Assembly (NCBI GenBank): GCA_040901705.1 | Contig: JBBDYI010000374.1 | Coordinates: 1-61,337, forward strand | Direction of reading: 5' to 3' | DNA: 61,337 bases | DNA from: Pirellulales bacterium | GTDB taxonomy: Bacteria > Planctomycetota > Planctomycetia > Pirellulales > PLA5 | Shown: piece after piece, positions 14,189-53,062 of the stretch | Layout: each line of letters opens with the position of its first letter | Position numbering within the stretch: position 1 is the stretch's first letter | The notes under the pieces: model-generated | The model's database searches: none | The model's input: the letters and a program-made list of their open reading frames with translations, nothing else | Told to the model about the DNA's origin: nothing | Program-made: the position numbers and the translations under genes

Positions 14189-14222
14189 CGCCAGTCGCGT
14201 CGGCGCCTCGCAGAGTTTTGCC

Positions 14223-20200: not shown

Positions 20201-23200
20201 GTCTGTCGGAGAACTGTCCGATGTGGTGAATGCTCGTTTTTCCGCGATGGCCGACGTGAATCTGCGCCTGGCCACAAGTTTCGTCACCGACGCGCGGTTT
20301 CCGTCGATATCGGCCGACTTTCATCTGGATTGGACGTTCCTTAATGCCAATCCAAGCGGCAATCCGGCGGCGCTGGGAAACCGTCCGCACGTTGTGTTCT
20401 CCAACATCACGCTGCCAATCGCCGAGTTTTTCGACCACTTCGCGGGCCCGATTCTCGGCCAAATCAAAGACTTGATCGAGCCGATCCAGCCCCTGATCAA
20501 GTTCTTGACTGACCCACTGCCCGTGATTTCCGATTTGCCGGGCATCGACGACGTTTCGATTCTCGACATCATCGCCGTGCTGCCGCCGATCAATGGCATC
20601 GACATCACGCAAGATCAAGTCGAGTTCTTCGAGGCGGCGGCCCGGCTGATCGGGCTGATCGACAAGATTCCCGAAAACTTCGCCGACTTGCAAATCGCAT
20701 TGGGCAGCTTTGAAATCGGCGGCCAAGGGGGAACTGGCGACCTGCGGCGGATTCTAGGCTCGGTCTCCGACGACGACCTCGATCACGTCCAGGAAATGGA
20801 CACCGCACCGCAGCTTCAACAGGATCACGACGTCGGCGACTTTTTCGACGAGGCCGCGGACATCGACGGCGGCGTCTCCTTTCCGATTCTCACGGACCCT
20901 AGCCAGGTGTTCGAATTGTTGCTCGGCGGCGATGCGACGCTGTTCAAGTATCAGTTGCCGGAGCTGCGCGCCGAACTGACGTTCAAACGCGAATGGCAGC
21001 CGTTTCCGCCGGTTCCTCTGTTCGGCACGTTCCGCGGCGTCCTCGGCGCTACCGCCAATCTCGGTTTCGGCTACGACACCTCTGGATTGCGGCGTTATCG
21101 CGAGTCGGGCGACTGGCGCGACGTATTCGGCGGTTTCTTCATCGACGATCACGCCACGTACGACAGCCGCGGCGAGCCGATCAAAGACGACCCCGAAGCC
21201 ACGATTTACGGCAGCGTCACCGTCGGCGTCCAACTCGGAACCGGCATCGCCGGCGGCATCGAGGGCGGTCTGTTCGGAACCGTAAACATCGACTTGATGG
21301 ACCCGATTCCCGACGGCGCGGTCCACTTCGACGAGCTGGTGGCCAGTCTCGACGAAGGCCTGCTTTGCACGTTCGCCGTCAGCGGCGAAGTCCGTGCGAA
21401 GATCCTTGCCTACCTGGAAGTGGCCGGCGAACGGACGAGCGAGAAAAAACTCGGCGAGTCGGGACCGATTCTGTCGTTCGATTTGAGTCCCGACCAGTGC
21501 TTCTCCTCGCGCTTCGAGTCGAACAACGTCATCGACACAGCGGCGGACATCGGCGTGGCGCCGGGCATTCACCTCGCCGATTTGAGTCTGATGCCGGCCG
21601 GAGACACCGATTGGTATCGCTTCGATCTATTGCGGCCCGACAGCGTGACGATCGTCGCCAAGGGCGATGTCAAGCTGGAGGCGACCAACGCCAACGGGAG
21701 CCTGCTCGGCCGCGGCACGGACGAGGGAGGCAAGACGCGGCTAACGCTGCAGAATCTTGCCGCCGGCACATATTACGTTCACGTTTACGGTAACGCCGTC
21801 GGGAATTACGATCTTTCGATCGACGCGGCTACGGGAACATCACATAGCGGATTACTGGGACCGCAAGGTACGCCGACCCGCGTGTTCTACGTCAATGACC
21901 CGACCGTCACCGATCCAACGGTCGCCAGCTTCTACTCGCTCGAACCGGGCGACGACGCGAACGATGGCCTATCGCCGCGGACGCCCAAAGCGACGGTCCA
22001 AAGCGTACTGGCGACGTATGATCTTGGCGAAAACGATTTGGTGCTGATCGACAGCGGTGCGTATGGTTCGGGCGCAATCACGCTTGGCGTGGCGGATTCC
22101 GGCGCGATGTTCGCCGGCGCGCCTGAGGGAAGCGTGTTCGGCTCCGGATCGCGGTGGCGGCTCGTCGGAGCCGACGACGTCGTGATCGACGCGCTGACGT
22201 TCGAAGGCGGCGGCGGGCCGGCGATAGAAATTGACTATGCTCGCACGATGCCGGCGGACGAATCCAACGACAACGTCCTGCGCCGGATCGTATTTCGCGA
22301 CGTGGGCACGGCGATTCGGATCGATCGCGGGTCGGGAAACCTCGTCGAACGGAACCGGATCGATGGCGCCGCGGCGCTGGGCATCGATGCCGTTTCGCCG
22401 ACGGCTCTGACCATCCGCGACAACGAATTCTTCGACACGCCAACGGCGATCCGGTTGGATCGCGCTCCGGGCGGGGTCGTCCAAGCCAATACGATCTTCG
22501 GCGCGACGGCGACGGCGATTCACACCATCGACGCGACGGGGACCATCATCCGCACGAACGTCATTGAGGACGCGGCGACCGGCATTCTGATCGTCGGCGG
22601 AGATGGAACGACCGTCGACGACAACGCGATCCTCGCGACAAATACGGGCGTCCTGGCGCAGAACGCAGCAGACCTTACCGTTAGTGGAAACGTGTTGACC
22701 GCCGTTCAAACGGGCGTGCGATTGGAGGATGTGCAATCTGGTGCGCTCATCAACAATGTCGTAACGGCCACAGGTCTCTACGGAATGTGGTTGCGAGGCG
22801 GAGGAGCGTGGACGATCCGCGGTAACGTCGTCGAAGGGGCGGCCGAGGGAGTACTGATTAGCACGACCAGCGGCCAATCGCTCGACTTGAACGCCCGGAA
22901 TAACTTGGTAACCGCCAGCAGCACCGGCTTTCGCGTGGCCGACGCGGGAGTCAGCGGCCGGCTCACCGCCAACGAATTCCACGACAGCGGCACGGGGCTG
23001 ATCGTCACGGCGAGCGGAGTCGAGGTCGACGACAACGAGTTCCGCGGCAATCAGACAGGGTTGCGGCTCAGCGGAAGCGCAGCGACCGTGCATGACAACG
23101 ACATGCATCACAACGCGATCGGCGTCCATGTCACTTCCGGTGTGGCCAACATTTACGGTAACTCGATTCACGACAACACGGTCGGCGTGCGAAGCGACGC

Positions 23201-26200
23201 AACGTTCGGCCCGGCAAGCTGGTCGATGGCCGATCCGAACGACGTGTTTCGAAACGCGACCGGCATCGAAGCGCTCGGCGGCGCGACGATCCAGTTCAAC
23301 CGCCTGCACCATAACGTAATCGGCGTCCGCGTGGCCGGCGCGGCGCACGTGCATCACAACGTCGCCTATCGAAACACAGACGCCGGCATCTTGGTCAGTG
23401 CCGTTACCGGCGCGACGGTTGAGAGCAACACGATTTACGCGCCCGCTGGCGATGCCGTCCGCTTGGATGGCCCAACCACCAACCTCGTCCTGCGCAATAA
23501 CGTCCTGTGGGCCGAGAGTGGATTCGCGCTGGCGTCGCCGACCGACAACCATGCGGGTCTGGTGAGCGATTTCAACAATCTGTACGTTTCCGGTTCCGGC
23601 AAACTCGTGCTGTGGAAGAAGGAGATCAATGACCTGTTGAACTGGCAGGTGGAAACGGATTTCGACATGCATTCGATCGGTTACACGACCATCGACCCCG
23701 GGCGCGACAATCCGCGGTTCGTCGATCTGGCCAACGACGACTATCACTTGCTCGACGCAGTGTCGACCAGTATCGACGCGGGCGACCGGCTGGCGGCGTT
23801 CAATGCCGAACCGGTGCCCAACGGGGGCCGGATTGACCTCGGCGCCTACGGCAACACGTCGGAGGCGGCGATGTCTCCGGCCAGCTCTCGACTTGAGATC
23901 GACTATCCCAATTACTACACCGACTGGACGACCGACGAGGGGCGATTCATTCGCTGGGCCGGGTACAACGTCGCCGGCAACGTTCACATCGAACTGTACG
24001 AGGAGGGAGTCGGCAAGATCGGCGACGTGGCCGTGGTGTCGGCGAGCGCCGGTCCCTACCTATGGTCGCCTGGCGACAACGGCCTCGCCGGCGACCCGAC
24101 GCGACGCTATCGATTGCGGATTTCCTCGGTGAACGACCCGGCGGTGTTCATCTTCTCGCGCGAGACGTTCAGCGTGCCGCCAGAGACCGCGGTGTTTTAC
24201 GTCAACGACGCTTTGACCCCGCAGGACGAGTACGCAACGGCCGCCGGCAACAATCGCAGCACGGGACGCACGCCAGCCGATCCCAAACCCAGCCTGCTGG
24301 CCGTGCTGAAGTCTTACGACCTGGACGCGGGCGACACGGTTTACGTCGATGCCGGGGAGTACCGCCACCTTGCCGATGCGGTCTTGAGCGGCGATCTTGC
24401 CATCGGCAATGACGAAGGTATGACCGTGACGGGACCAGGCGATTCTGCGCGCGTGGCGCGGCTCGTGCAGTTCAGCGACCGTCCCAGCCAGGCCGCGATT
24501 GATGTAAACAACGCCGACTTTGTCACGATCAGCCACCTCACGCTTGTCGGCGCTCCGACGGGGCTGTGGGTGCGGAATGGCGCCACCGATTTTCGAGCCG
24601 TTTTCGTCACGACAAATGGCCATGTTCTGGACGGACTACGCATCGACACCGGATCGTCGGCCGCGTCGTTGGCGTCCATCATCGCGATCGACAATGGGCG
24701 GTACGGGATCAATACCCAGGGACCATTGGGCGAGTTGGTCGACAGCACGATCTACGGCAATCGCAACACGGGCGTGTTGCTGAGCGCCTCAGGCAGCCCG
24801 CTCGTCGCGAATAACCTAATTCACAGCAATCGGGGTGATGGCATCACGATTCCGGGTGCGGAAGGCGCCCGGATCGAGGCGAACCGCATCTACGGCAATT
24901 TGGGGCAAGGTCTTCTGCTTTCGGCAAGCGGACTGCTGACGACAATCGGCCACGACGATTTGTCGCTCGGCCGCGGAAACATCGTGTACGACAACGGCCA
25001 GAACGGCATCTATGCCACCGGCGCCGTGCGTGTCGTCGGCAATACAGTGTATGGTCACTCGGCGAACAATCAAATCGGCATCTACGGCGCCAAAGAGATC
25101 ACTTCCAACGTCGTGTTTGGCAATGACATCGGCATCCACAGCACCGACACCGTTTCGACCAATCGCGTCTACCAGAACCGCACCACGGGCATCGTAACGG
25201 GAGCTTCCGGCCGAGTTTCCGGCAACGTCGTCTACTCCAACGGCGTCGGCATTCAAATCGGGTGTTGCGGCCTTTACAACGCCGCGGAACTGACGAACAA
25301 CCTGGTCTATGCCAACGCGACCATTGGAATCAGGGCGTATCCGGGCAATGGGATCAAGCTCATCAACAACACGGTTTACCAGCCGTTCGGCAATGCGCTC
25401 GTCTTCGAAGGCGACACGACCGCGTTCGCGATGCGCAACAACATATTCTCCGTGGCCGTCGGCTATGCGATCAACGCCGGGAGCTTCAACCTGCCGCAAT
25501 TGGCGAGCGACTACAACAACTTTTTCGTGACCGGGACGGGGCAGGTCGGTGTGTGGCAGGGAATCGCACGCGCTACGCTTGCCCAATGGCGTTCGGCGTC
25601 GTTTACCGACGGCAACAGCCTGGCGCAGAACCCGCTGTTCATCGACCCGGACGGCGGCGACAACCTAATCGGCTATTCGAGCGTTCTGGCGGACGGGCGC
25701 GACGATGATTTTCATCTGCAAGGCCTATATGGAAGCTTCCACGGCGGCTCGTCGGCGCCAGTCGTCGCCACGGCGCCTGGCCTGCCGGTGGCGATGCCGC
25801 CGATGGAATCTCTCGACGCCGCGCAATCGCCGCTGATCGACGTCGGCGCGGCGTCGGACTCGTTCGCTGCCGAGCCGCTTCCCAATGGCGGGTTCGTGAA
25901 CCTCGGCACCTACGGCAACACGCCCCAGGCGTCGAAGAGCCCACCGACGTACGTGCGTGTATTGTCGCCAGACGGCGGCGAAGCGTGGCCCGTCGAGCAA
26001 TCGTTCGCGATTCGCTGGCGGAGTAACGACCCTCTCGCAGGTTACGCGCTGGCCTTCGATGGCATGGACGACTACGTGGCGATTGCCGAACCAACCGACG
26101 GTAGCCTAGACTTGGGAACATCGGCCACTCTCGAAGCGTGGGTCAAGTTCGCCGCGCTTCCTAACAATTCGTTGGCGACGATTCTCAGTAAGGATCAAGG

Positions 26201-29200
26201 TGGTGGACAGCAAAACAAGTGGATATTCGGCTACGCGCGGAACTATGGCAATATCGCCAACGCCACGTTTTTCCACATCAACTCGCCGGCCGGCGGGGCG
26301 GTATTTCTCACTTCTAACCCCTGGACGCCCGACATAGGGCGGTGGTATCACCTCGCCGTCGTGCGCAGCGGCAATCAGTTCGACTTCTACCGCGATGGCG
26401 TGCTCGACGGAACGGCGACCACCGCGTTCGCGGTTCCGCAGGTCGCGTACCCAGTTGAAATCGGTCGCGCCGAAGGGTTCGCGTATTTCAACGGCACGCT
26501 CGATGACGTGCGCATCTGGAATACGAGCCGTCAGCCGGCCGAGATTCAGGCCGCGATGACCGAAGGCGTTACCGGTGGTGAAGCGGGACTCGTCGCCGCA
26601 TGGGATTTTCAGCAGGGCGTGGGAAATATCGCGATTGATCGCACGCCGCACGGCCACGACGGCACACTCGGCGGCGGCATCGCCACGCGACGACCGGCTT
26701 GGGTGACGCGGACGCAAGCCGTGACGGTCGATATCGACTTGCTTCAGGCAGGAGAACAAGCGTCGGTTCTGTCCATCGCCGACGATACTCCCAACGACGG
26801 CGAGTTTGTGTGGACCGTGCCGTTGACGCTTGAACCGGCGGCGGATTATGCGATTCGCGTGACGCGGACCGACAACGGAGCTACCGATGCCAGCAATGCC
26901 GCCTTTTCCATTTCGCCGCCGGTGAATCACTACTATGTCAACGACGCCACGGTTGACGCGGGGGATTGGACAACAGCGTCTGGCAACGACGCCAACGATG
27001 GTTTGACGCCGGGATCGCCGAAGGCGTCGGTACGCGCAATTCTCGAAACGTACGATCTCGGACCGACCGATACGGTGCTGGTCGACGCCGGCCTGTATCT
27101 GTTGACGACCAACCTGACGATTACCGCCGCCGATTCCGGCGTAACGATTGTCGGCTATCACGACGCGGCGTTCCCCGACCGACGCGCCGTTTTGAATCGC
27201 GGTGCGACGGCGGCGAGCAATCACGTGTTCGAGTTGGTCAACGCCGACGACGTGACGCTGGACCACTTGTCGCTGACGGGCGGGTATTACGCGGTGTACG
27301 CCGTGTCCGGGTCCGACAGCGACCGGCTGACGCTGTCGAACAACGACATTTCCGGCTACGCGGGCGTGAGGCTCGAACTTGCCAACGATGGCGCGGTGAT
27401 CGTCGGCAACTTCGTCCACGACCTGGCCAGTGGAGCGTATTACCTTTACGTGCATGGCTTCGACTCCACAGTCGTCGGCAACCGGATCGGACGCAACGGC
27501 GCCGCGGCCGACGGCACCGGCGTGAACCTGGGCGGCGAGCGGAACACGATCCAAGGAAACGAAATCTGGAACTTGAACTACGGTATCACCAACGGGGGCG
27601 GCGGCAGCGGCGCGGCCAATCGCAACGTGATCGTGGGGAACCTGATCCACGACAACCTGTACGTCGGCATCCAGGATGGCGGCAACACGCTGATCACTGG
27701 CAACACGGTGTACGGCCAACGCGGGCCGGGCGACGTGGGCATCTTCGGCTATGGAGTTGGCCTCATCGAGAACAACGAAGTGTACGACAACGCCACCGGT
27801 CTGCAACTCCAGGGTGGCACGGCGCGCAACAACCGAGTGTACGGCAACAACCAGATCGGCATCGTCACCGGCGCCAGCGCCGTCATCACCGGCAACACGG
27901 TGTACTCGAACCCGCTAGGCATCCAAGTCGGCTGCTGCGGACTCTACAACGCGGCCCAGGTGACCAATAACCTCGTCTACGCCAATACGACGGCTGGGAT
28001 TCTGATCGGGCGATCTTATGCGGCGAACGGCGTGCTGATCGGCAACAACACGGTCTATCAACTTCAAGGCGATGCCTTGGTGTTCGAAGGGGACACATCG
28101 CTGGTTAGCGTGAAGAACAACGTACTTGTGTCCGGCGGTTATGTTATCAACGGCGCGAGTTACAACTTGTTGGGACTGACGAGTGACTACAACGTCCTCA
28201 ATGCAACCGGCGCGGCGAAACTTGCCCGCTGGCAGAACCGCGATTTCACCAGCCGCGTCGACTGGTTCTATGAACTGGGGCTGGACGCCCACAGCCAGAC
28301 CGTCGATCCTCAATTCGTCGACATCGATGGCCCGGATAATCAACTTGGCTACGTATCGGGCGTGGACTACGGTCTGGACGATGATTTCAGCTTGCTGACG
28401 ACATCGCCCGGCGTCGACGCGGGAAATCCGGCGGACTCGTTCGTGCTGGAACCAAACCCGAACGGGGGTCGGATCAACATCGGACATCAGGGCAACACGC
28501 CGCAGGCCACGAACAGCCCGCTGCAAACGGTGCAAGTCCTGTCGCCCAACGGTTTGGAAAAATTCGAGACGAACCAGACCGTGGCGATCCAATGGCGTTC
28601 GGCCGGACTGCCGGTCGAGGCCACCGTGGCGATCGACGTTTCGATCGATGACGGAATGTCTTGGACGCCGCTTGCCGCCGGCTTGCCGGGCAATGGCACT
28701 TATGCCTTTACGCCCACGGTTGCGACGTTGGGCAATCTGGCTCTGGTTCGCGTGCGGGCCGACACGCCACTCGCGCCGCAAGACACGAGCGACACCGCGT
28801 TCCTGATCGCCAACAGCGGCGCGGACTATTACGTCAACGACGGCGCGACGACCGGTGACGCATTTACGACGGCTCTGGGCGACAACGCCAACAGCGGCAA
28901 GAGTCCGTCGTCGCCGATGGCCAGCCTGTCGGCGTTGCTCGCAGCCTATGACCTGGATTCGGGCGACGTGGTCCACGTCGATGCGGGTACGTACGACCTA
29001 GTCAAGAATGTCGTCATCACCAGTCAAGACAGCGGCGTGCGGATCGAAGGACCAACAACGGCTGCGGCGATTCTCAACCGCGGCGCGGTGGCCAGCAGCA
29101 ATCACGTGTTCGAGTTAGTCAACGCCGACGACGTGACGCTGGACCACTTGTCGCTGACGGGCGGCTACCACGCGGTGTACGCTGCTTCCGGTTCCGACAG

Positions 29201-32200
29201 CGACCGGTTGACCCTCTCGAACAACGACATCTACGGCTACGTGGGAGTGCATCTGGAATCCACCAACGACCAGGCGGTGATCGTGAATAACTTCGTCCAC
29301 GACCTGGCCAGCGGAGCGAATTACATCTTTGTGCGGGGCAACGACACCACGATCGTCGGAAATCGGATCGGCCGCACCGTTGCGACCGACGGCACGGGAT
29401 TGAGCCTGCACGGCGAGCGAAACAAGGCCCAAGCCAACGAAATATGGCACCTGAACTACGGGATCAACAACTCGGGCGGCGGCAGCGGCGAGGCCAACCG
29501 CAACGTGATCGTGGGGAACCTGATCCACGACAACCTGTACGCCGGCATCCAGAACGGCGGCAACGCGCATGTGACCGGCAACACGATATACGGCCAGCGA
29601 GAGTCGGTGGGCGACATGGGAATCCACAGCTTTGGAATCGGCCTCATCGAGAACAACGAGGTGTACGACAACGCGATCGGCATCGTGGTCTATGGCGGGC
29701 TGACCCGCAACAATCGCGTGTACCGCAACAGCCAGGTCGGCATCATGGCCACCCAATCGGCGATGGTGCAGGGAAACACGGTGTACTCGAACCCGCTAGG
29801 CCTCCAAGTCGGCTGCTGCGGCGTGTACAACTCCGCCCAGGTCACGAACAACCTCGTGTATGCCAATACGACGGCGGGTATTCTCGTGGGGCGAACGTAC
29901 GCGGCCAACGGCGCGCTCGTCGCTAACAACACGGTCTATCAGCCTCAAGGCGACGCCTTGGTCTTCGAGGCGGACACATTATTGGTTAGCGTGAAGAACA
30001 ACATCCTGGTCTCTGGCGGCGGGTATGTGATCAACGGCGGAGGCTACAACGTGCTCGGCCTCGCGAGCGATTACAACCTGCTATTCGCATCCGGGTCGGC
30101 CAAGTTGGCGCGTTGGCAAAATCGTGATTTCACCAGTCGCGCAGATTGGTTCTATGAACTGGGATTCGACACCCACAGCCAGACCGTCGATCCGCAATTC
30201 GTCGACATCGACGGTCTGGATAATCAACTTGGTTTTGTGAGTGGCGTTGACTATGGCTTGGATGACAATTTCAGCTTGCTGACGACTTCGCCTGGCGTCG
30301 ACGCGGGAAATCCGGCGGATGCCTTCGCGTTGGAATCCAGCCCCAACGGCGGCCAGATCAACTCGGGGCACCACGGCAACACGCCGCAGGCGACCAACAG
30401 CCCGCTGCAATTGGTGCAGATCCTTTCGCCCGACGGACTGGAGAAGGTCGAACGCGGACAATCGGTCGCCATTCAATGGTCGTTTCACGGGCTCCCTGCA
30501 AACGGCGATCAGGACGCCTTATTGGCGCACGCGCCGCTGGTCTATTATCGATTCGACGAATCTAGCGGCACTGTGGCCGTGGATTCTTCGGCCAATGCCC
30601 TGCACGCGACGTACACGAATGGTGTGACGCTGGGAACCACTGGCGGACTGAGCGATGCCACGAATCGTGCCGCCCGATTCGACGGCCAGAACGATTACGT
30701 GGCCGTGCCGGCAACGAATCTCTTCGATACCGCGCAACTTTCAGTCGAGGCTTGGGTCAACCCCGATCCCGCGACCGCGGATTTCACGCCCGTGCTGCTC
30801 AAGACCAGCTCGGATGCGTGGGATGACGGCTGGGGATTGTTTTGGAACGGCGCGGGAAGCCTGCGGTTCTTTGTCAATCACTGGTACGACTCGGCGTCGG
30901 CCGCCGTCGACGTCGCCGTGCCGACGAACGCCTGGTCGCACGTGGCCGCGACTTACGACGGGGCGATGGTCCGAATTTATCTCAACGGAACGCTGGCCGC
31001 CGCCAAAGCGTATACGTCGCCAATCCGCCACGGCAGCCGACCGTTGTCGATCGGGCAGCGGGAATGCTGCAGTCCCCGCTACTGGAAGGGCGGGCTGGAC
31101 GAAGTCGCCGTATACGGCGTTGCGCTGTCGGCCGTCGCGGTTCAAGCACACTATTTGCGACAGAGTTATGGCACGGCACGCATCGAACTGTTCGGCGCGA
31201 ACGATCCGACGCCCGTGCTGACCATTGCCACGACCACGCCAAACAGCAACAGGTACGATTGGACGGTTCCTGCGAATCTCGCAGAGGGAGAGTATCGGAT
31301 CCGAGTCACCGCCAATTCCGGACTACAGCCCGAGGACACGTCGGATGCGTCGTTCCTGATCGCCAACAGCGGCGCGGACTATTACGTCAACGACGGCGCG
31401 ACGACCGGTGACGCATTTACGACGGCTCTGGGCGACAACGCCAACAGCGGCAAGAGTCCGTCGTCGCCGATGGCCAGCCTGTCGGCGTTGCTCGCAGCCT
31501 ATGACCTGGATTCGGGCGACGTGGTCCACGTCGATGCGGGTACGTACGACCTAGTCAAGAATGTCGTCATCACCAGTCAAGACAGCGGCGTGCGGATCGA
31601 AGGACCAACAACGGCTGCGGCGATTCTCAACCGCGGCGCGGTGGCCAGCAGCAATCACGTGTTCGAGTTAGTCAACGCCGACGACGTGACGCTGGACCAC
31701 TTGTCGCTGACGGGCGGCTACCACGCGGTGTACGCTGCTTCCGGTTCCGACAGCGACCGGTTGACCCTCTCGAACAACGACATCTACGGCTACGTGGGAG
31801 TGCATCTGGAATCCACCAACGACCAGGCGGTGATCGTGAATAACTTCGTCCACGACCTGGCCAGCGGAGCGAATTACATCTTTGTGCGGGGCAACGACAC
31901 CACGATCGTCGGAAATCGGATCGGCCGCACCGTTGCGACCGACGGCACGGGATTGAGCCTGCACGGCGAGCGAAACAAGGCCCAAGCCAACGAAATATGG
32001 CACCTGAACTACGGGATCAACAACTCGGGCGGCGGCAGCGGCGAGGCCAACCGCAACGTGATCGTGGGGAACCTGATCCACGACAACCTGTACGCCGGCA
32101 TCCAGAACGGCGGCAACGCGCATGTGACCGGCAACACGATATACGGCCAGCGAGAGTCGGTGGGCGACATGGGAATCCACAGCTTTGGAATCGGCCTCAT

Positions 32201-34433
32201 CGAGAACAACGAGGTGTACGACAACGCGATCGGCATCGTGGTCTATGGCGGGCTGACCCGCAACAATCGCGTGTACCGCAACAGCCAGGTCGGCATCATG
32301 GCCACCCAATCGGCGATGGTGCAGGGAAACACGGTGTACTCGAACCCGCTAGGCCTCCAAGTCGGCTGCTGCGGCGTGTACAACTCCGCCCAGGTCACCA
32401 ACAACCTCGTTTACGCCAATACGGAGTACGGCATTGTTGTTGGACGCACCTACGATGCCAACGGCGCGCTGATCGTCAACAACACGGTCTACCAATCAGT
32501 TGGCGACGCAATTCGCGTTGAGACTGGTTCAAACAATTTGACGATCAAGAACAACATTCTCGCGTTCGGCGCGGGATACGGGCTTAACTTTCTGACGACC
32601 AACCACACCAACCGGGCGTGGGACTATAACCAGTTCGACCGTTTGACGCAGACGCAAGCGAGCGTTGCGTTTTGGGGAGGCGAGGCGCGGGCGACGCTCG
32701 CGGATTGGCAAGTCGCCGCGGCGCAAGACGTCAATTCTCTCGCCGCGTCGGCTGGTTTTGTCGATATCAACGGCGCCGACGACGTGCTCGCATTCTCGGC
32801 CGGCAGCGGCTACGACGGCGGCCGCGACGACAATTTTCACCTTGCCGCCGGATCGCTGGCCATCGACCGGGGCGATGCAAACGCTGCACCGCTCACCGAC
32901 CGCAATGGCCAGGGACGCGCCGACGATCCCGGTTCGCCAAATCTGGGTAATCCGGTCGGCTCGTTCGTCGATCTAGGAGCCTTCGAGTTCCATGGATCGA
33001 GCATCGACGTCGATCCGCCGGTCATCGTGGGTACGCAGCCAGCGGCGATTGCCGCCGGAGGGCGGATTGCATTGCTTGTTGACGTGACGCTCCTGTTGAG
33101 TGAGCCTCTCAACGCGAACGACGCCGCCGCGACGTCGAACTTCGAATTGCGGGCCAGCGGCATCAACGGCCTGTTCGGCGACGAAGATGACATCGTTTAC
33201 GTACTGACGCCCGAATACGGAATCGGCACGACGGCGGTAATCCTGCATCCGGAAATCGGCAGTTTGCCAGACGGCGACTATCGCATCACCGTTTCTCCGA
33301 CCGGGAGCCTACGCGACGAATCTGGATTGGCGCTCGACGGCGATGGCGATGGCGCGCCGGGCGGAGCGTGGATGCGTGTTTTCACCGTCGGCTTCACGAT
33401 CGGCGATTTCGACGGCGACGATGACGTCGATGCCGCGGACATCGATGCTCTGTTTGCCGCCATTGCGATCGGCGCCGTCGATCCTCGCTACGATCTCGAC
33501 GGTGATGGCCGCGTCGATGCTGCGGACGTAGGCGAACTTGTTGTCGGCATTCTCAATACACGGCCGGGCGACGCAAATCTCGACGGCCGCGTCGATCGCG
33601 CCGACGTCGCGCTGTTGGCGTCGCGGTTCGGCCGCGTCGGCGTTCCGCGCTGGTCCGACGGCGACTTCGACGGCGACGGCATGACGGGTCTCGTCGATCT
33701 CGGGTTGTTGCAACGAAACCTGCTCGTGTCGCAGAGCACCTCGATGCCGGGCGACTTCGACGGTGACCAAAATGTGGACGCGGACGACATCGATCGACTC
33801 TTCGCGGCAATTGCCGGTGGCGCGACGGCTGAAGCGTTTGACGTGAACCACGACGGAAACATCGACTACGGCGACGTCGTCTATGTGGTGGAAAACATAC
33901 TTCACACGCGAATTGGCGATGTCGATCTGGATGGTCGAGTCGATGAGGCGGACATTGCGATCGTCGCCACGAACTTCGGCCAATCGAGCGAACGGCGGTG
34001 GTCTTTGGGCGACATCGACGGCGACAGTCGCGTATCGCTGGCTGACCTGGCAAGCCTGCAACGGCGGCTTGGACAAGGTTCGACGGCGTCGCCGATCATA
34101 GCTCCGGCGGCACGCGCGACGATCGCCGCCGTTTTCCGCAACGCCGCTGCGAAACAAGTCGACCAGGCCATACTCCTTGCCGTGGCGCATCGCAGGATGA
34201 CGGTCGTTTCACCCAAGAATTCGGTACTCGCGGCGCGGACCGGTCCGTTGCCCGCGGATCGGCGTCCGAAAGTCGCTTTGTCGGTACGAATTGTGAATGG
34301 GCCGACCGAAGTGAACTTGCGTGCGACTCGACATCGACGCGCCGGGCCGGTCGACGAGGAGTATGTCACAATGATCGATACGGCGGTCGAACACGTTTCC
34401 CGTGAACGACGCTTGCGGCGCATCATCGCGTAA
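14223..34433 (+). CDS. giant (~6,736 aa) secreted multidomain protein: LE-R-LL leader, zinc phospholipase-C-like head, ~2,200-aa unassigned region, PPC domain, five parallel beta-helix modules, two LamG domains, Ig-like segment, eight dockerin-like loops, basic tail
   Basis: Single uninterrupted 20.2-kb reading frame. The track opens it at ATG 14151, inside the kinase gene. ATG 14223 (MMRRFNASKRK...) is the first start after the kinase stop. Domain evidence is given in the sub-features. Confidence 0.9.
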   Translation: MMRRFNASKRKHQLRSTRRYDASHQLSVLRFEALEDRRLLFSPYTHISAAEQVLADLTDDSQLTIAGQDYDVRPEVIAALRDYPAYYRAGVVGPDSYPDVPLGAGIIHAENAGLWARHVFREAWAAQTDPGYDAAERSQILAWSYGFLTHMAGDVWAHTLVNDLAGGVWPAIGDIPSEAQNAAIVLRHLAIEGYIADYTPGYDGNPTRNPGDTSDTTTPELVFAVPHEFVYKTLIEPDNGLHTETRGVLIDRFLSLRATLEGLKTPANRDLRSEASTAVSDVLGSLDAAEAAFDAAAGPCFDTFDLTACVQSLGNLAKWGAVNSAAAFESFRLSTLDDLATALFDSYLNEWIGNIDAGLRHWTEFSLAVSNALLNPQTRRDAQDYLCAPRGGEFDPARIACEDDVGFLDVISYATTDFVNDYLLGMLGAPDFLGGLREKLQDFAHTLDLALGPAFNPMRLTQDALRDLSQTISHTALEATFGVDLNLLESFLKTPSAMLDVTEIDLGPTFGVTPLFQPGDHARLDQLLGIVGTDHHETTDPKVLKADEAFDPTSPTVFAAYANTVTMSKLLLLDGATLDDVLGDIIGEPGFAFYQLVDTDLPVRGNVMLTPLPGVGATELLSSELMDSRYRNQQWLHSIDHDHAWRADGLPAFANSNAAGAHNRPLDDGFPNSGGLGNFPLWESATLRPAFRVLFRDWENPQGFTDFRDDYGDAPTINPVERLDDPGVAAALEAGLAETIEWFGSLDGAASPPASSNSPPVPAASPDALALLAQPLPLVGMSVGQALDIEGLLRQLLLEPVEAYFGGDATPTAAELVAVLSQLSTTVGDVQADVAPLGAGGGLAQTALGEELAFSIRLTASRTRTDVPLLLPSQDVWGITLGAAATVDLTATLAIGLTFGYDLTPGVSAADAFFIYIHELTPGVTVRTDDLNFSAKVGFLDIGIEDGIVNLDAELPFEVVDPGPDLLGRISLADLQATSPAMLFDVAAPTATFYANLPVTGGLGGFSLSPFYSTRPSIEVEDDDSFDATPPQTRVENFDELLNFNALSPQTVVAALEQLAGWLDNFSQSAVMATPIPLTGGTTLGDVVAWGETFAARIVSPLKSLTSTPLFDTAEELANRLAEALGLDIAAIDADYNCFTDELTYKLNLSDVLQPIDVPIDFDLELGSVGLLSTSSTLRVTGSADIELTLGFKLSPLVAVVTAAGTAPSDGVLSSDAHFALTVGDGGPMPIVVPRDDANTSVADLVADINAAIDATCLSGRVTASHDNGTLRLAARVIDSAPSFHLEATAGDSAITDLHFAATNAATASTLDRLFVRDPRLTASLHMAADDVDALARFGFIGIEVVNGSATADASIDVSLTDPGTVDPDGDISITELWTALSDVSTLVPSPEVSGSAHVVLPIRLNPNFLGAEHPADPRITVDWPDITNAGTLTLNFNEDMQELANFEYVSQLDVIDALASAAEYLASLEEFSFLGEKLPLVNRSVSDILGYAAEFTRQVQSVRDDPGATLQELERRLEVALGLVPDSPLVNLSFDGTALRIELVAAAAFDESVAIDLDLAALSAAAGGVPGLENVSRLVDLSGSGVLSLAASATANIQLGIDVADPSDPRSFLYDTTELVVEVRATGTDLNFDAPLGPLGVYIRSGVAVLDGDGIIGTTAPARFSVSLVDPNGDGRIDFAELASLNPAIVDVDLTGQVRATLPVYFPSQTTWLGDIDLRITSLSDIPGTIELTAPPISGQFGLVNLLDNLGVVVIGLDSVLARMQDALDGVVFAARLPLIGRDLQKSAKFIDRLREEAVQPLADLLTDTPPVDAVRQGLFDILGPSGLNLLDKDFHDELSDNVPDAAANLDDVVLEVSMGGNQIQFNVRLKRAMELVDAPIAFDVGLPALGLEVDGDVSLRLGYELTLGFGVNIAQGFYFDTSPQNELLVELEATIPGMTATGHLGFLRVDVEDDPTMPSRLTGSFAIDLMDPIDNPLDPDDDDQLSILDLASVGELSDVVNARFSAMADVNLRLATSFVTDARFPSISADFHLDWTFLNANPSGNPAALGNRPHVVFSNITLPIAEFFDHFAGPILGQIKDLIEPIQPLIKFLTDPLPVISDLPGIDDVSILDIIAVLPPINGIDITQDQVEFFEAAARLIGLIDKIPENFADLQIALGSFEIGGQGGTGDLRRILGSVSDDDLDHVQEMDTAPQLQQDHDVGDFFDEAADIDGGVSFPILTDPSQVFELLLGGDATLFKYQLPELRAELTFKREWQPFPPVPLFGTFRGVLGATANLGFGYDTSGLRRYRESGDWRDVFGGFFIDDHATYDSRGEPIKDDPEATIYGSVTVGVQLGTGIAGGIEGGLFGTVNIDLMDPIPDGAVHFDELVASLDEGLLCTFAVSGEVRAKILAYLEVAGERTSEKKLGESGPILSFDLSPDQCFSSRFESNNVIDTAADIGVAPGIHLADLSLMPAGDTDWYRFDLLRPDSVTIVAKGDVKLEATNANGSLLGRGTDEGGKTRLTLQNLAAGTYYVHVYGNAVGNYDLSIDAATGTSHSGLLGPQGTPTRVFYVNDPTVTDPTVASFYSLEPGDDANDGLSPRTPKATVQSVLATYDLGENDLVLIDSGAYGSGAITLGVADSGAMFAGAPEGSVFGSGSRWRLVGADDVVIDALTFEGGGGPAIEIDYARTMPADESNDNVLRRIVFRDVGTAIRIDRGSGNLVERNRIDGAAALGIDAVSPTALTIRDNEFFDTPTAIRLDRAPGGVVQANTIFGATATAIHTIDATGTIIRTNVIEDAATGILIVGGDGTTVDDNAILATNTGVLAQNAADLTVSGNVLTAVQTGVRLEDVQSGALINNVVTATGLYGMWLRGGGAWTIRGNVVEGAAEGVLISTTSGQSLDLNARNNLVTASSTGFRVADAGVSGRLTANEFHDSGTGLIVTASGVEVDDNEFRGNQTGLRLSGSAATVHDNDMHHNAIGVHVTSGVANIYGNSIHDNTVGVRSDATFGPASWSMADPNDVFRNATGIEALGGATIQFNRLHHNVIGVRVAGAAHVHHNVAYRNTDAGILVSAVTGATVESNTIYAPAGDAVRLDGPTTNLVLRNNVLWAESGFALASPTDNHAGLVSDFNNLYVSGSGKLVLWKKEINDLLNWQVETDFDMHSIGYTTIDPGRDNPRFVDLANDDYHLLDAVSTSIDAGDRLAAFNAEPVPNGGRIDLGAYGNTSEAAMSPASSRLEIDYPNYYTDWTTDEGRFIRWAGYNVAGNVHIELYEEGVGKIGDVAVVSASAGPYLWSPGDNGLAGDPTRRYRLRISSVNDPAVFIFSRETFSVPPETAVFYVNDALTPQDEYATAAGNNRSTGRTPADPKPSLLAVLKSYDLDAGDTVYVDAGEYRHLADAVLSGDLAIGNDEGMTVTGPGDSARVARLVQFSDRPSQAAIDVNNADFVTISHLTLVGAPTGLWVRNGATDFRAVFVTTNGHVLDGLRIDTGSSAASLASIIAIDNGRYGINTQGPLGELVDSTIYGNRNTGVLLSASGSPLVANNLIHSNRGDGITIPGAEGARIEANRIYGNLGQGLLLSASGLLTTIGHDDLSLGRGNIVYDNGQNGIYATGAVRVVGNTVYGHSANNQIGIYGAKEITSNVVFGNDIGIHSTDTVSTNRVYQNRTTGIVTGASGRVSGNVVYSNGVGIQIGCCGLYNAAELTNNLVYANATIGIRAYPGNGIKLINNTVYQPFGNALVFEGDTTAFAMRNNIFSVAVGYAINAGSFNLPQLASDYNNFFVTGTGQVGVWQGIARATLAQWRSASFTDGNSLAQNPLFIDPDGGDNLIGYSSVLADGRDDDFHLQGLYGSFHGGSSAPVVATAPGLPVAMPPMESLDAAQSPLIDVGAASDSFAAEPLPNGGFVNLGTYGNTPQASKSPPTYVRVLSPDGGEAWPVEQSFAIRWRSNDPLAGYALAFDGMDDYVAIAEPTDGSLDLGTSATLEAWVKFAALPNNSLATILSKDQGGGQQNKWIFGYARNYGNIANATFFHINSPAGGAVFLTSNPWTPDIGRWYHLAVVRSGNQFDFYRDGVLDGTATTAFAVPQVAYPVEIGRAEGFAYFNGTLDDVRIWNTSRQPAEIQAAMTEGVTGGEAGLVAAWDFQQGVGNIAIDRTPHGHDGTLGGGIATRRPAWVTRTQAVTVDIDLLQAGEQASVLSIADDTPNDGEFVWTVPLTLEPAADYAIRVTRTDNGATDASNAAFSISPPVNHYYVNDATVDAGDWTTASGNDANDGLTPGSPKASVRAILETYDLGPTDTVLVDAGLYLLTTNLTITAADSGVTIVGYHDAAFPDRRAVLNRGATAASNHVFELVNADDVTLDHLSLTGGYYAVYAVSGSDSDRLTLSNNDISGYAGVRLELANDGAVIVGNFVHDLASGAYYLYVHGFDSTVVGNRIGRNGAAADGTGVNLGGERNTIQGNEIWNLNYGITNGGGGSGAANRNVIVGNLIHDNLYVGIQDGGNTLITGNTVYGQRGPGDVGIFGYGVGLIENNEVYDNATGLQLQGGTARNNRVYGNNQIGIVTGASAVITGNTVYSNPLGIQVGCCGLYNAAQVTNNLVYANTTAGILIGRSYAANGVLIGNNTVYQLQGDALVFEGDTSLVSVKNNVLVSGGYVINGASYNLLGLTSDYNVLNATGAAKLARWQNRDFTSRVDWFYELGLDAHSQTVDPQFVDIDGPDNQLGYVSGVDYGLDDDFSLLTTSPGVDAGNPADSFVLEPNPNGGRINIGHQGNTPQATNSPLQTVQVLSPNGLEKFETNQTVAIQWRSAGLPVEATVAIDVSIDDGMSWTPLAAGLPGNGTYAFTPTVATLGNLALVRVRADTPLAPQDTSDTAFLIANSGADYYVNDGATTGDAFTTALGDNANSGKSPSSPMASLSALLAAYDLDSGDVVHVDAGTYDLVKNVVITSQDSGVRIEGPTTAAAILNRGAVASSNHVFELVNADDVTLDHLSLTGGYHAVYAASGSDSDRLTLSNNDIYGYVGVHLESTNDQAVIVNNFVHDLASGANYIFVRGNDTTIVGNRIGRTVATDGTGLSLHGERNKAQANEIWHLNYGINNSGGGSGEANRNVIVGNLIHDNLYAGIQNGGNAHVTGNTIYGQRESVGDMGIHSFGIGLIENNEVYDNAIGIVVYGGLTRNNRVYRNSQVGIMATQSAMVQGNTVYSNPLGLQVGCCGVYNSAQVTNNLVYANTTAGILVGRTYAANGALVANNTVYQPQGDALVFEADTLLVSVKNNILVSGGGYVINGGGYNVLGLASDYNLLFASGSAKLARWQNRDFTSRADWFYELGFDTHSQTVDPQFVDIDGLDNQLGFVSGVDYGLDDNFSLLTTSPGVDAGNPADAFALESSPNGGQINSGHHGNTPQATNSPLQLVQILSPDGLEKVERGQSVAIQWSFHGLPANGDQDALLAHAPLVYYRFDESSGTVAVDSSANALHATYTNGVTLGTTGGLSDATNRAARFDGQNDYVAVPATNLFDTAQLSVEAWVNPDPATADFTPVLLKTSSDAWDDGWGLFWNGAGSLRFFVNHWYDSASAAVDVAVPTNAWSHVAATYDGAMVRIYLNGTLAAAKAYTSPIRHGSRPLSIGQRECCSPRYWKGGLDEVAVYGVALSAVAVQAHYLRQSYGTARIELFGANDPTPVLTIATTTPNSNRYDWTVPANLAEGEYRIRVTANSGLQPEDTSDASFLIANSGADYYVNDGATTGDAFTTALGDNANSGKSPSSPMASLSALLAAYDLDSGDVVHVDAGTYDLVKNVVITSQDSGVRIEGPTTAAAILNRGAVASSNHVFELVNADDVTLDHLSLTGGYHAVYAASGSDSDRLTLSNNDIYGYVGVHLESTNDQAVIVNNFVHDLASGANYIFVRGNDTTIVGNRIGRTVATDGTGLSLHGERNKAQANEIWHLNYGINNSGGGSGEANRNVIVGNLIHDNLYAGIQNGGNAHVTGNTIYGQRESVGDMGIHSFGIGLIENNEVYDNAIGIVVYGGLTRNNRVYRNSQVGIMATQSAMVQGNTVYSNPLGLQVGCCGVYNSAQVTNNLVYANTEYGIVVGRTYDANGALIVNNTVYQSVGDAIRVETGSNNLTIKNNILAFGAGYGLNFLTTNHTNRAWDYNQFDRLTQTQASVAFWGGEARATLADWQVAAAQDVNSLAASAGFVDINGADDVLAFSAGSGYDGGRDDNFHLAAGSLAIDRGDANAAPLTDRNGQGRADDPGSPNLGNPVGSFVDLGAFEFHGSSIDVDPPVIVGTQPAAIAAGGRIALLVDVTLLLSEPLNANDAAATSNFELRASGINGLFGDEDDIVYVLTPEYGIGTTAVILHPEIGSLPDGDYRITVSPTGSLRDESGLALDGDGDGAPGGAWMRVFTVGFTIGDFDGDDDVDAADIDALFAAIAIGAVDPRYDLDGDGRVDAADVGELVVGILNTRPGDANLDGRVDRADVALLASRFGRVGVPRWSDGDFDGDGMTGLVDLGLLQRNLLVSQSTSMPGDFDGDQNVDADDIDRLFAAIAGGATAEAFDVNHDGNIDYGDVVYVVENILHTRIGDVDLDGRVDEADIAIVATNFGQSSERRWSLGDIDGDSRVSLADLASLQRRLGQGSTASPIIAPAARATIAAVFRNAAAKQVDQAILLAVAHRRMTVVSPKNSVLAARTGPLPADRRPKVALSVRIVNGPTEVNLRATRHRRAGPVDEEYVTMIDTAVEHVSRERRLRRIIA
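14313..14342 (+). other. N-terminal FEALEDRRLL motif (LE-R-LL type leader)
   Basis: Preceded by a ~30-aa Arg/Lys-rich N-terminus with no hydrophobic h-region. Confidence 0.6.
14352..14820 (+). other. zinc-dependent phospholipase C-like domain
   Basis: HISAAEQVLADL...YYRAGVVGPDSYPD...GFLTHMAGDVWAHTLVND...LRHLAIEGYIAD. The G.L.H...D...H pattern is typical of the Zn-dependent PLC family. Recognised by eye only. Confidence 0.5.
21598..21828 (+). other. bacterial pre-peptidase C-terminal (PPC)-like domain
   Basis: AGDTDWYRFDLLRPDSVTIVAKGDVKLEATNANGSLLG...LQNLAAGTYYVHVYGNAVGNYDLSIDA. Confidence 0.6.
21880..23870 (+). other. parallel beta-helix module A
   Basis: Opens with VFYVNDPTV...GDDANDGLSPRTPKATVQSVLATYDLGENDLVLIDSGAYG. 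Many N/G-rich PbH1-like turns follow (NNVVT, GNVVEG, HDNDMHHNAIGVHV...). It closes with DDYHLL...DAGD...PNGGRIDLGAYGNT. Confidence 0.75.
24189..25945 (+). other. parallel beta-helix module B
   Basis: VFYVNDALTPQDEYATAAGNNRSTGRTPADPKPSLLAVLKSYDLDAGDTVYVDAGEY ... GCCGLYNAAELTNNLVYAN ... DDDFHLQ ... PNGGFVNLGTYGNT. Confidence 0.75.
26042..26690 (+). other. LamG/concanavalin-A-like lectin domain 1
   Basis: LAFDGMDDYVAIAEP...SATLEAWVKFAALP...RWYHLAVVRSGNQFDFYRDG...FNGTLDDVRIWNTSR. Confidence 0.7.
26922..28515 (+). other. parallel beta-helix module C
   Basis: HYYVNDATVDAGDWTTASGNDANDGLTPGSPKASVRAILETYDLGPTDTVLVDAGLY ... GCCGLYNAAQVTNNLVYAN ... PNGGRINIGHQGNT. Strongly similar to modules D and E, with long runs of identical residues in the translation. 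Confidence 0.8.
28798..29845 (+). repeat. perfect 1,048-bp direct repeat, copy 1 (inside the giant ORF)
   Basis: Identity with 31351-32398 at a fixed offset of 2,553 nt. I spot-checked it at eight positions across the repeat. It is corroborated by identical shadow ORFs in the track (29115-29756 = 31668-32309; 29456-29683 = 32009-32236). The first mismatches are at 28797/31350 and 29846/32399. Confidence 0.9.
28818..30400 (+). other. parallel beta-helix module D
   Basis: GADYYVNDGATTGDAFTTALGDNANSGKSPSSPMASLSALLAAYDLDSGDVVHVDAGTY ... GCCGVYNSAQVTNNLVYAN ... PNGGQINSGHHGNT. Confidence 0.8.
30535..31155 (+). other. LamG/concanavalin-A-like lectin domain 2
   Basis: LVYYRFDESSGTVAVDSS...ARFDGQNDYVAVPA...LSVEAWVNPD...AWSHVAATYDGAMVRIYLNG...GGLDEVAVYGVAL. 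Confidence 0.7.
31351..32398 (+). repeat. perfect 1,048-bp direct repeat, copy 2
   Basis: See 28798-29845. The offset of 2,553 nt equals 851 codons, so the two copies are in the same reading frame. Confidence 0.9.
31371..32995 (+). other. parallel beta-helix module E (mosaic: first ~343 aa identical to module D, remainder different)
   Basis: Identical to D up to ...SAQVTNNLVYANT. It then diverges (EYGIVVGRTYDANGALIVNN...RDDNFHLAAGSLAIDRGD...FVDLGAFEFHG). Confidence 0.8.
33402..34075 (+). other. eight dockerin/EF-hand-like Ca-binding loops in two blocks of four
   Basis: DFDGDDDVDAAD, DLDGDGRVDAAD, DANLDGRVDRAD, DFDGDGMTGLVD, then DFDGDQNVDADD, DVNHDGNIDYGD, DVDLDGRVDEAD, DIDGDSRVSLAD. Confidence 0.75.
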
Positions 34434-52901: not shown

Positions 52902-53062
52902 AAAACACGGAGGCACGGAGACACGGAGGGCATGCAAACGATGAGTGATGAGTGGCACTTCCAATCGTAAGGTGGCATCGCCGCTCGTTCATCATTCATC
53001 ACTCATCAATCATCGTTCATCACTTTCCCTTTTTCCTCCGTGTCTCCGTGCCTCCGTGTTTT
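52902..53062. repeat. nested palindromic element between convergent genes
   Basis: Perfect 28-bp arms: aaaacacggaggcacggagacacggagg (52902-52929) and cctccgtgtctccgtgcctccgtgtttt (53035-53062). The arms are built from (CACGGAGR)x3 tandem units. An inner 12-bp inverted repeat is present (gatgagtgatga / tcatcactcatc). The right arm lies inside the last ~19 codons of the 53006-55189 ORF. Confidence 0.9.

What the first reader, a model, noticed from the sequence alone, without database searches (positions are those of the whole stretch)
28798..32398. 1,048-bp perfect, in-frame direct repeat inside the giant gene with razor-sharp boundaries
Seen: 28798-29845 and 31351-32398 are identical wherever I checked (eight spot checks plus identical shadow ORFs in the track). 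The offset is 2,553 nt, which equals 851 codons. Flanks diverge abruptly: the upstream flank keeps only protein-level similarity (PQDTSDTAFLIANSG versus PEDTSDASFLIANSG), and downstream the two modules continue into different C-terminal halves. A third paralogue (module C, 26922-28515) is clearly diverged at nucleotide level. Inference: this reflects recent gene conversion or duplication between modules D and E. Homologous recombination between the copies would delete or duplicate exactly 851 aa in frame (the module D tail, LamG-2 and an Ig spacer), which is a plausible size- or antigenic-variation mechanism. It is also a classic site for assembly collapse or expansion.
Basis: seen in the sequence. 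Interest (0 to 1): 0.62.

Follow-up and report, generated by a model that had tools for sequence, protein, structure and literature searches.

The report
Gene conversion inside a giant gene
Two beta-helix modules of a 6,760-residue secreted-protein gene from a sediment planctomycete share a perfectly identical 1,048-bp stretch because the front part of one module was recently copied over the other. This is an ordinary recombination process, and it also recurs in related giant genes of other bacteria.

Summary
Window 28798-29845 and 31351-32398 are identical (0 mismatches in 1,048 nt). The offset is 2,553 nt (851 codons), in frame in the 14151-34433 ORF.

It is not an assembly artefact. In the source metagenome run, repeat contigs lie at 1.92-1.99x the depth of unique parts of the gene. 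All four junctions are present, and the segment between the copies is at 1.03x.

It is gene conversion, not a new duplication. The tails of modules D and E each match the same-position tails in 21 other genomes (21/21 and 20/21), so both modules are ancient. Only the head is identical. Module C is 80.7% identical to the tract and 79.8% to the D tail, so D was probably the donor and E the recipient.

The pattern recurs in the family:
- L027 has a 1,008-nt perfect in-frame repeat.
- L031, L032 and L030 have repeats at 99.7%, 99.4% and 96.5%.
- 8 of 120 protein homologues carry exact internal repeats of 119-315 aa.
- In 12 of 22 loci the terminal head is closest to its own neighbouring head.

The 851-aa deletion/duplication arithmetic is right. 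I found no length variant in the sample and no support for antigenic variation. This is a known kind of process, of modest interest.

The parts
14151..34433 (+). Giant ORF (6,760 codons). It encodes a secreted multi-domain protein with five right-handed beta-helix modules (A-E), Ig-like (Kre9_KNH) spacers, two LamG domains, Big_5 and two dockerin repeats. The real start is probably the ATG at 14223.
26931..28535 (+). Beta-helix module C, an older paralogue that serves as the outgroup. From 27195 it is 79.6% identical to D (to 28567) and 79.4% identical to E (to 28061).
28798..29845 (+). Repeat copy 1: the head of module D (last 10 codons of the Ig-like spacer, the N-terminal cap and most rungs of the beta-helix). 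Inferred donor.
29846..29941 (+). Zone just after copy 1 (GCCG...NNLVYAN rungs). It is 77% identical to 32399-32494, the ordinary level between modules. The right end of the tract lies at its start.
29846..30425 (+). Module D tail (D-type). It is closer to penultimate-module tails than to terminal tails in 20 of 21 other genomes.
30426..31350 (+). Ig-like spacer with the LamG-2 domain nested inside it (Laminin_G_3 at about 30681-31142). Together with the D tail this is the 1,505-nt unique segment between the copies.
31351..32398 (+). Repeat copy 2: the head of module E. Inferred recipient, overwritten by the D head.
32399..33020 (+). Module E tail (E-type). It is closer to terminal-module tails than to penultimate tails in 21 of 21 other genomes, and only 41% identical in protein to the D tail.

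Best explanation
A recent intragenic gene conversion, meaning a non-reciprocal homologous transfer. The first 1,048 nt of beta-helix module D (N-terminal cap plus most rungs) were copied over the corresponding part of the older, position-specific terminal module E.

The right end of the tract lies in the conserved GCCG/NNLVYAN rungs, where the modules are still about 77% alike. The left end lies where homology between the two modules runs out.

This is one instance of a process that keeps homogenising the heads of neighbouring beta-helix modules in this family of giant planctomycete proteins, while their tails stay distinct. As a by-product, the two 1-kb direct repeats are a substrate for unequal crossover that would remove or add an 851-aa unit in frame.

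Shown: identity, frame, copy number, the antiquity of both modules, and recurrence in homologues. Inferred: the direction D to E, dependence on homologous recombination, and the consequences for length variation.
For: (1) Identity is 0/1,048 mismatches, against 77% just after the tract, 50% just before it, and about 80% to module C.

(2) The repeat is real in the sample. X1 repeat contigs have depth 16.4-17.0, against a mean of 8.5 for eight unique contigs of the gene. A 47-nt word shared by C, D and E has depth 27.6. Contigs enter the repeat from both upstream flanks and leave it into both downstream flanks. The only contig breaks inside the repeat are at the 47- and 43-nt words shared with module C.

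(3) Both modules are ancient. The E tail is closer to other genomes' terminal tails than to their penultimate tails in 21/21 genomes (p=1e-6). The D tail shows the reverse in 20/21. The heads carry no positional signal (p=0.29).

(4) Direction. C-D identity is 80.7% inside the tract and 79.8% in the D tail (p=0.68), so the tract is continuous with the D lineage.

(5) Recurrence.
- L027: 1,008 nt exact, offset 2,808, in frame, with a D-type tail after copy 1 and an E-type tail after copy 2.
- L031: 99.7% over 945 nt. L032: 99.4% over 646 nt, plus a third module at 95-96%. L030: 96.5% over 888 nt.
- 8 of 120 homologues have exact internal repeats of 119-315 aa at offsets of 833-990 aa.
- In 12 of 22 loci the terminal head's nearest relative is its own penultimate head, whereas in 18 of 22 the terminal tail's nearest relative is another genome's terminal tail.

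(6) The structure model shows that the tract ends between rungs of one continuous beta-helix, so the chimera stays in register.
Against: - No close relative is available (best about 50% protein identity). The state of E before conversion is therefore not observed, and the event cannot be dated against a sister genome.
- The left flank has almost no nucleotide homology (50% over 60 nt), so a tract bounded by homology on both sides cannot be demonstrated. A template switch or a break-repair event with an illegitimate left junction would look the same.
- The direction rests on a single outgroup module (C).
- The perfection of the identity may be partly produced by the assembler if the contig came from short reads. 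Logan contigs can hide a few balanced variants, and the repeat depth (92-95% of twice the depth of the adjoining flank contigs) does not exclude one or two differences.
Confidence: 0.85

Rival explanations
1. A recent partial tandem duplication. Module E, or its head, was newly created by duplicating the D head, for example by unequal crossover or replication slippage, rather than by overwriting an existing module.
For: The two copies are direct, in frame and close together. The left junction has almost no flanking nucleotide homology. L005 shows that duplication of a whole unit does happen in the family.
Against: Only 1,048 of the 2,553 nt of the unit are identical. The E tail is a positional orthologue of terminal tails in 21/21 other genomes, and the peptide before copy 2 is homologous to the peptide before copy 1 but is encoded by diverged codons. 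So a complete module E with its own spacer already existed.
Confidence: 0.05
2. An assembly artefact. The repeat was collapsed or expanded, or two similar but distinct heads were written as one consensus.
For: A 1-kb exact repeat is longer than short reads. The sequencing technology is unknown. The public data are k=31 contigs that can drop variants (tool note).
Against: Depth is 1.92-1.99x in the repeat, 1.03x in the intervening segment and about 3x in the word shared with module C. All four junction contigs are present. No alternative contigs appear at 90% likeness or above. The same pattern occurs in independent assemblies whose 330-525 kb contigs are probably from long reads, which is an inference from contig size, names and frameshifted genes. 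At most a few SNPs could be hidden.
Confidence: 0.04
3. The identical repeats are a selected switch. Frequent recombination between them toggles an 851-aa unit in and out to vary the length or surface properties of the protein, as in cagY or the alpha C protein.
For: Any crossover between the copies is in frame, and the product would be a well-formed module. In H. pylori cagY, in-frame recombination between direct repeats gives size variants (PMC2194252). Module number differs among homologues, and L005 has a duplicated unit.
Against: The source sample shows no deletion or expansion signal: the intervening segment is at 1.03x, with an sd of about 10% among unique contigs. The arrangement of a D-type then a terminal E-type module is conserved in 22 loci. 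There are only two copies, not an array. The organism lives in sediment and there is no evidence of immune-like pressure.
Confidence: 0.08
4. The identity is kept by purifying selection on the protein, not by recombination.
For: The beta-helix core is the most conserved part of the modules.
Against: Identity includes every synonymous site (third-position identity is 1.00 in the tract, against 0.5-0.86 between C and D). Selection on the protein cannot produce that.
Confidence: 0.01

Closest known systems
Gene conversion between duplicated bacterial genes (tufA/tufB of Salmonella; Paulsson et al. 2017, PMC5485169)
   Same: Non-reciprocal transfer keeps roughly 1.2-kb duplicates nearly identical. 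Tracts of hundreds to over a thousand nucleotides typically run to the limits of the homologous block.
   Different: The tuf copies are separate genes, inverted and 762 kb apart, and the whole gene is homogenised. Here the copies are direct, 1.5 kb apart inside one ORF, and only the head of the module is homogenised while the tails stay distinct.
In-frame recombination between direct repeats in Helicobacter pylori cagY (Aras et al. 2003, PMC2194252)
   Same: Direct DNA repeats lie inside a large surface-exposed protein gene, and every recombination product stays in frame.
   Different: cagY has very many short repeats, and its size variants and immune evasion have been demonstrated. Here there are two 1-kb copies, no variant has been observed, and no host is involved.
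Intragenic homogenisation of repeat modules in spidroin genes (PMC3933166) and 'horizontal' evolution of protein repeats (Persi et al. 2016, PMC5120217)
   Same: Repeat units within one gene resemble each other more than they resemble their orthologous units in other species. This is concerted evolution (titles and abstracts only).
   Different: Those are eukaryotic tandem arrays of whole units. Here the modules are separated by other domains and homogenisation is partial.
Giant genes of Planctomycetota (Reva and Tummler 2008, cited in Kohn et al. 2016, PMC5177795)
   Same: A gene of over 20 kb for a secreted or surface protein in a planctomycete-like genome. Such genes are reported as typical of the phylum.
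   Different: The two giant-gene papers I searched (PMC5177795 and bioRxiv 10.1101/2023.11.21.568195) count and annotate giant genes. Neither mentions gene conversion or recombination inside them.

Membership tests
Gene-conversion tract between paralogous sequences (concerted evolution) | A stretch of identity far above the divergence of the flanking paralogous sequence | tested here: met
   0/1,048 mismatches, against 77% (next 96 nt), 50% (previous 60 nt) and about 80% to module C; P about 1e-101
Gene-conversion tract between paralogous sequences (concerted evolution) | Both copies existed as separate paralogues before the event (the tract and its flanks give conflicting phylogenies) | tested here: met
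   The tails are positional orthologues of tails in other genomes (21/21 and 20/21). The heads cluster within the genome and carry no positional signal
Gene-conversion tract between paralogous sequences (concerted evolution) | Non-reciprocal: the donor is left unchanged | tested here: inconclusive
   C-D identity is the same inside and outside the tract (80.7% versus 79.8%), which fits an unchanged D. No sister genome is available to confirm this
Gene-conversion tract between paralogous sequences (concerted evolution) | Dependence on homologous recombination (RecA pathway) | not testable with these tools
   Needs genetics. The left flank shows little nucleotide homology
Recent tandem segmental duplication | The whole unit is duplicated, and the second copy has no older history of its own | tested here: not met
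   Only 1,048 of 2,553 nt are identical, and the E tail is ancient by position
Assembly artefact at a repeat | Read or k-mer depth and junctions do not fit the assembled copy number | tested here: not met
   Repeat 1.92-1.99x, intervening segment 1.03x, shared word about 3x, four junctions present
Length-variable (contingency-type) surface protein genes such as cagY | Length variants coexisting in a population | tested here: inconclusive
   No depth signal for a deletion or expansion allele. Contigs of 31-mers cannot show the joined form across a 1-kb repeat, and sensitivity is only about 20%
Right-handed parallel beta-helix (Beta_helix/NosD, pectate-lyase-like) proteins | Matches to the Pfam models above the curated cut-off, and a beta-helix fold | tested here: met
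   PF13229 at 216 bits and PF05048 at 128 bits. AlphaFold model with pLDDT 74-94 over residues 67-450, all short strands in rungs. Foldseek gives generic beta-helix hits (tailspikes, Pel9A, AlgG, PL6 lyases) with low TM scores

The most novel reading that the evidence does not exclude
Across Planctomycetota, the heads of the last two or three beta-helix modules of this giant-protein family are kept identical by sustained concerted evolution, while the tails stay position-specific. The terminal head's closest relative is its own penultimate head in 12 of 22 lineages, including five with 96.5-100% nucleotide identity. On this reading the pattern is favoured by selection, either because the protein needs two identical binding or catalytic heads joined to different tails, or because the repeats act as a built-in in-frame switch for module number.
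Probability: 0.2. Interest if true: 0.5.

Novelty: new member of a known kind. Interest (0 to 1): 0.3.

Why it matters
For annotation and assembly: exact 1-kb repeats inside giant planctomycete genes can be real. Here the copy number was checked against k-mer depth. Such repeats should not be 'corrected' away, and they explain why these genes break short-read assemblies.

For evolution: this is a clean bacterial example of partial concerted evolution inside one gene. The heads are homogenised and the tails are conserved by position. The signature is seen independently in several lineages, so the family could serve for studying how conversion tracts are limited by divergence.

For function: nothing here shows that the repeat does anything for the cell. 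Length variation remains a prediction.

Tried and rejected
- Close orthologues, to look for module-number polymorphism. A protein search and scans of GTDB genomes and JGI metagenomes gave nothing above about 50% identity.
- Other runs. X2 (same study as X1) holds the organism only at about 3x. X4, also from that study, showed no contigs that fitted it. X3 holds a relative at about 90% identity, only as 150-240-nt contigs. This is too fragmentary to compare mosaics.
- One X3 contig spans the right junction of module E at about 92% identity, but it begins with 30 nt identical to module C. It is either a different mosaic in the relative or a k-mer chimera. Unresolved.
- Sequencing technology of the source. 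Filtering the runs on the word ILLUMINA returned nothing, and the library field is empty. Uninformative.
- Direction from head phylogeny. The heads carry no positional signal, so the direction rests on module C only.
- Mobile element or a gene on the opposite strand as an explanation. The tract translates as an ordinary beta-helix head homologous to modules B and C. The window-wide repeat scan found no long inverted repeats near it. The 'shadow ORFs' were not examined; such open frames are common in 62.7% G+C DNA (general knowledge).
- Fold search for a specific function. It gave only generic beta-helix matches with TM 0.2-0.4.

Full report
**1. The observation**

A base-by-base comparison shows that window 28798-29845 and 31351-32398 are identical, with 0 mismatches in 1,048 nt. 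The longest exact run on that diagonal has exactly these ends. The offset is 2,553 nt, or 851 codons. Both copies lie in the same frame of a single open reading frame, 14151-34433, of 6,760 codons.

The left boundary is abrupt. The 60 nt upstream are only 50% identical, although the encoded peptides are similar. The right boundary is a step rather than a cliff. The next 96 nt are 77% identical, and identity then decays to about 45%.

With about 80% identity between paralogous modules, a run of this length has a chance probability of about 1e-101. Zero differences put a 95% upper bound of 0.29% on the divergence of the copies.

**2. The gene**

The ORF encodes:
- an N-terminal region without strong domain matches;
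- a PPC domain;
- five right-handed beta-helix modules (A-E; Beta_helix and NosD models well above cut-off);
- Ig-like Kre9_KNH spacers and two LamG domains;
- a Big_5 domain and two dockerin repeats.

G+C is 62.7%. The best homologues are 44-52% identical and come from MAGs of Lacipirellulaceae, Pirellulales and other Planctomycetota. This is therefore a planctomycete 'giant gene' of the kind reported as typical of the phylum (PMC5177795).

An AlphaFold model of module E gives a confident beta-helix over residues 67-450 of the construct. The identical tract corresponds to residues 31-380. That span covers the end of the preceding spacer, the N-terminal cap and most rungs, and it ends between two rungs. 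Fold search returns only generic beta-helix carbohydrate-active proteins and tailspikes at low TM scores.

**3. Is it an assembly artefact?**

The window is held at 98% of sampled words by one sediment-metagenome run, X1. Only its k=31 contigs are available.

| Part of the gene | X1 depth |
|---|---|
| Eight unique contigs | 7.2-9.6 (seven excluding the intervening segment: mean 8.53, sd 0.90) |
| Three contigs covering the repeat | 16.5, 16.4, 17.0 (1.92-1.99x) |
| 47-nt word shared exactly by modules C, D and E | 27.6 (about 3x) |
| Unique segment between the copies | 8.76 (1.03x) |

One contig runs from upstream into the first 30 nt of the repeat. The contig of the intervening segment starts in the last 30 nt of the repeat and ends in its first 30 nt. 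A fourth contig leaves the repeat into the E tail. The only breaks inside the repeat coincide with the 47- and 43-nt words shared with module C.

The only linear path that fits these depths is flank, repeat, intervening segment, repeat, flank. So two copies per genome are real.

Two limits remain:
- A deletion allele would create no new 31-mer and would show only as lower depth of the intervening segment. Frequencies below about 20% would go unseen.
- If the contig came from short reads, both copies were written from pooled reads. One or two true differences could then be hidden.

The technology could not be established.

**4. Conversion or duplication?**

A self-comparison of the gene shows four internal nucleotide similarities:

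| Pair | Identity | Length |
|---|---|---|
| D/E | 1,048 nt perfect, then 96 nt at 77% | 1,144 nt |
| C/D | 79.6% | 1,380 nt |
| C/E | 79.4% | 871 nt |
| B/C | 68% | 312 nt |

After the tract, the D tail stays C-like at about 80%, while the E tail is only about 40-55% identical to either.

I then collected homologous loci from GTDB genomes, JGI metagenomes and ENA assemblies. In them I mapped heads, D-type tails, E-type tails and LamG domains. Twenty-two loci, counting the window, have a D-type module followed by a terminal E-type module.

The window's E tail is more similar to the terminal tail than to the penultimate tail in 21 of 21 other genomes (p=1e-6). The D tail shows the reverse in 20 of 21. 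The head has no positional preference (p=0.29).

Both modules are therefore ancient and position-specific, and only the head of one has been replaced. That is gene conversion in the usual sense, not the birth of a new module.

Third-position identity of 1.00 in the tract, against 0.5-0.86 between C and D, excludes protein-level selection as the cause.

**5. Direction**

Module C is 80.7% identical to the tract (618/766) and 79.8% identical to the D tail (481/603), p=0.68. The tract is thus continuous with the D lineage. The simplest reading is D as donor and E as recipient.

This rests on one outgroup and is an inference. The first roughly 270 nt of the tract are only 42-56% identical to C. 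D is therefore itself a mosaic, which points to earlier events of the same kind.

**6. Recurrence in the family**

- L027 (a JGI metagenome contig, about 45% protein identity to the window) has a 1,008-nt perfect direct repeat at an offset of 2,808 nt (936 codons). It lies in frame in a giant ORF. A D-type tail follows copy 1 and an E-type tail follows copy 2.
- L031 has 945 nt at 99.7% (924 exact).
- L032 has 646 nt at 99.4%, plus a third module at 95-96% with exact runs up to 323 nt.
- L030 has 888 nt at 96.5%. All three offsets are multiples of three.
- These three come from contigs of 16 to 525 kb with frameshift-split genes. I take that, as an inference, to indicate long-read assemblies.
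- Among the 120 protein homologues, eight carry exact internal repeats of 119-315 aa at offsets of 833-990 aa. The repeats map to different but overlapping parts of the module.
- In 12 of 22 loci the terminal head's nearest relative is its own penultimate head. In 18 of 22 the terminal tail's nearest relative is another genome's terminal tail.

So the heads evolve in concert and the tails do not. The range from 96.5% to 100% identity suggests events of different ages.

L005 carries a 3,221-nt tandem unit at 92.7% (head, D-type tail, LamG, twice, then head and E-type tail). This is what an unequal crossover between two heads would produce.

**7. Mechanism**

The mechanism is inferred from established knowledge of bacterial recombination. 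The conserved rungs of the beta-helix give patches of nucleotide similarity between modules. A break in one module is repaired from the other. The tract then extends until divergence stops it, as in the tuf model, where tracts run to the bounds of the homologous block (PMC5485169). Once a stretch is homogenised, further conversion there becomes easier, while the diverged tails escape.

The weak homology at the left end is the least comfortable point. A template switch with an illegitimate left junction cannot be excluded.

**8. Consequences**

A crossover between the two copies would delete or duplicate exactly 851 aa in frame. The deletion would leave one well-formed module identical to the present E. 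This prediction is sound, and cagY of H. pylori is a precedent for in-frame repeat recombination in a surface protein (PMC2194252).

But nothing here shows that it happens at an appreciable rate or that it is used:
- The intervening segment has full depth.
- The two-module arrangement is conserved across distant lineages.
- There is no evidence for an antigenic role in a sediment bacterium.

**9. Verdict**

The best explanation is a recent D-to-E gene conversion (confidence about 0.85), one case of recurrent concerted evolution among beta-helix modules in this protein family.

The kind of process is well known. The two giant-gene papers I checked (PMC5177795 and bioRxiv 10.1101/2023.11.21.568195) do not mention it for giant genes, and the title and abstract listings from my searches did not point to one that does. 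I rate it a new member of a known kind, with modest interest.

Noticed in passing
window 27195-28567 versus 29076-30451: An older internal duplication or conversion between modules C and D: 79.6% identity over 1,380 nt at an offset of 1,881-1,884 nt. It runs from mid-head through the tail into the start of the following Ig-like spacer. Its left end (about 29067) lies inside the D/E tract, so module D is itself a mosaic.
   Followed up: partly
window about 25950-26900 and 30426-31350: Both LamG (Laminin_G_3) domains appear to be nested inside an Ig-like Kre9_KNH spacer. The spacer's first strands (LSPDG...AIQW/AIRW) come before the LamG domain and its remainder follows it. The C-to-D spacer is an uninterrupted Ig-like domain.
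   Followed up: no
window 14151-14223: The mechanical GTG start of the giant ORF overlaps the end of the upstream Ser/Thr kinase-TPR gene (10931-14188). The ATG at 14223 (MMRRFNASKRK...LRFEALEDRRLL) is a more likely start.
   Followed up: no
window 14355-14717 (aa 69-189 of the giant protein): A weak match to zinc-dependent phospholipase C, below the curated cut-off (PF00882, E=1e-4, 22.6 bits against a cut-off of 26.8).
   Followed up: no
window 1776-8609 (+): A second large secreted-type protein (2,277 aa) with four lamin-tail domains, a CotH kinase-like region and a dockerin repeat.
   Followed up: no
window 53006-55189 (-) and 56360-60415 (+): Another beta-helix protein (727 aa; Beta_helix/NosD/DUF1565), and a 1,351-aa protein that combines cytochrome c, DUF6797, LamG and an SGL-like region. 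The window-wide repeat scan listed no nucleotide repeat shared between them and the giant gene.
   Followed up: no
run X3 contig laid on window 32324-32529: A 237-nt contig from a different study is about 92% identical to module E on both sides of the tract's right end. Its first 30 nt are identical to module C (27860-27889) rather than to the tract. It is either a different conversion mosaic in a relative or a k-mer chimera.
   Followed up: partly
L005 8277-11424 versus 11498-14640: A planctomycete MAG carries a 3,221-nt tandem unit (head, D-type tail, LamG) at 92.7% identity, followed by a head with an E-type tail. The three heads are 86-93% alike. This looks like a past expansion by unequal crossover between heads.
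   Followed up: partly
L032 1584-2145 versus 3689-4251 and 6482-7010: In this homologue three modules are 95-99% identical in patches, with exact runs of 197-502 nt. It is a mosaic of several conversion tracts rather than one.
   Followed up: partly
window modules B-E (for example 27930, 29811, 32364): A conserved rung motif with two adjacent cysteines (GxQVGCCGxYN...NNLVYAN) is present in four of the five modules. The right end of the tract lies just after it.
   Followed up: no
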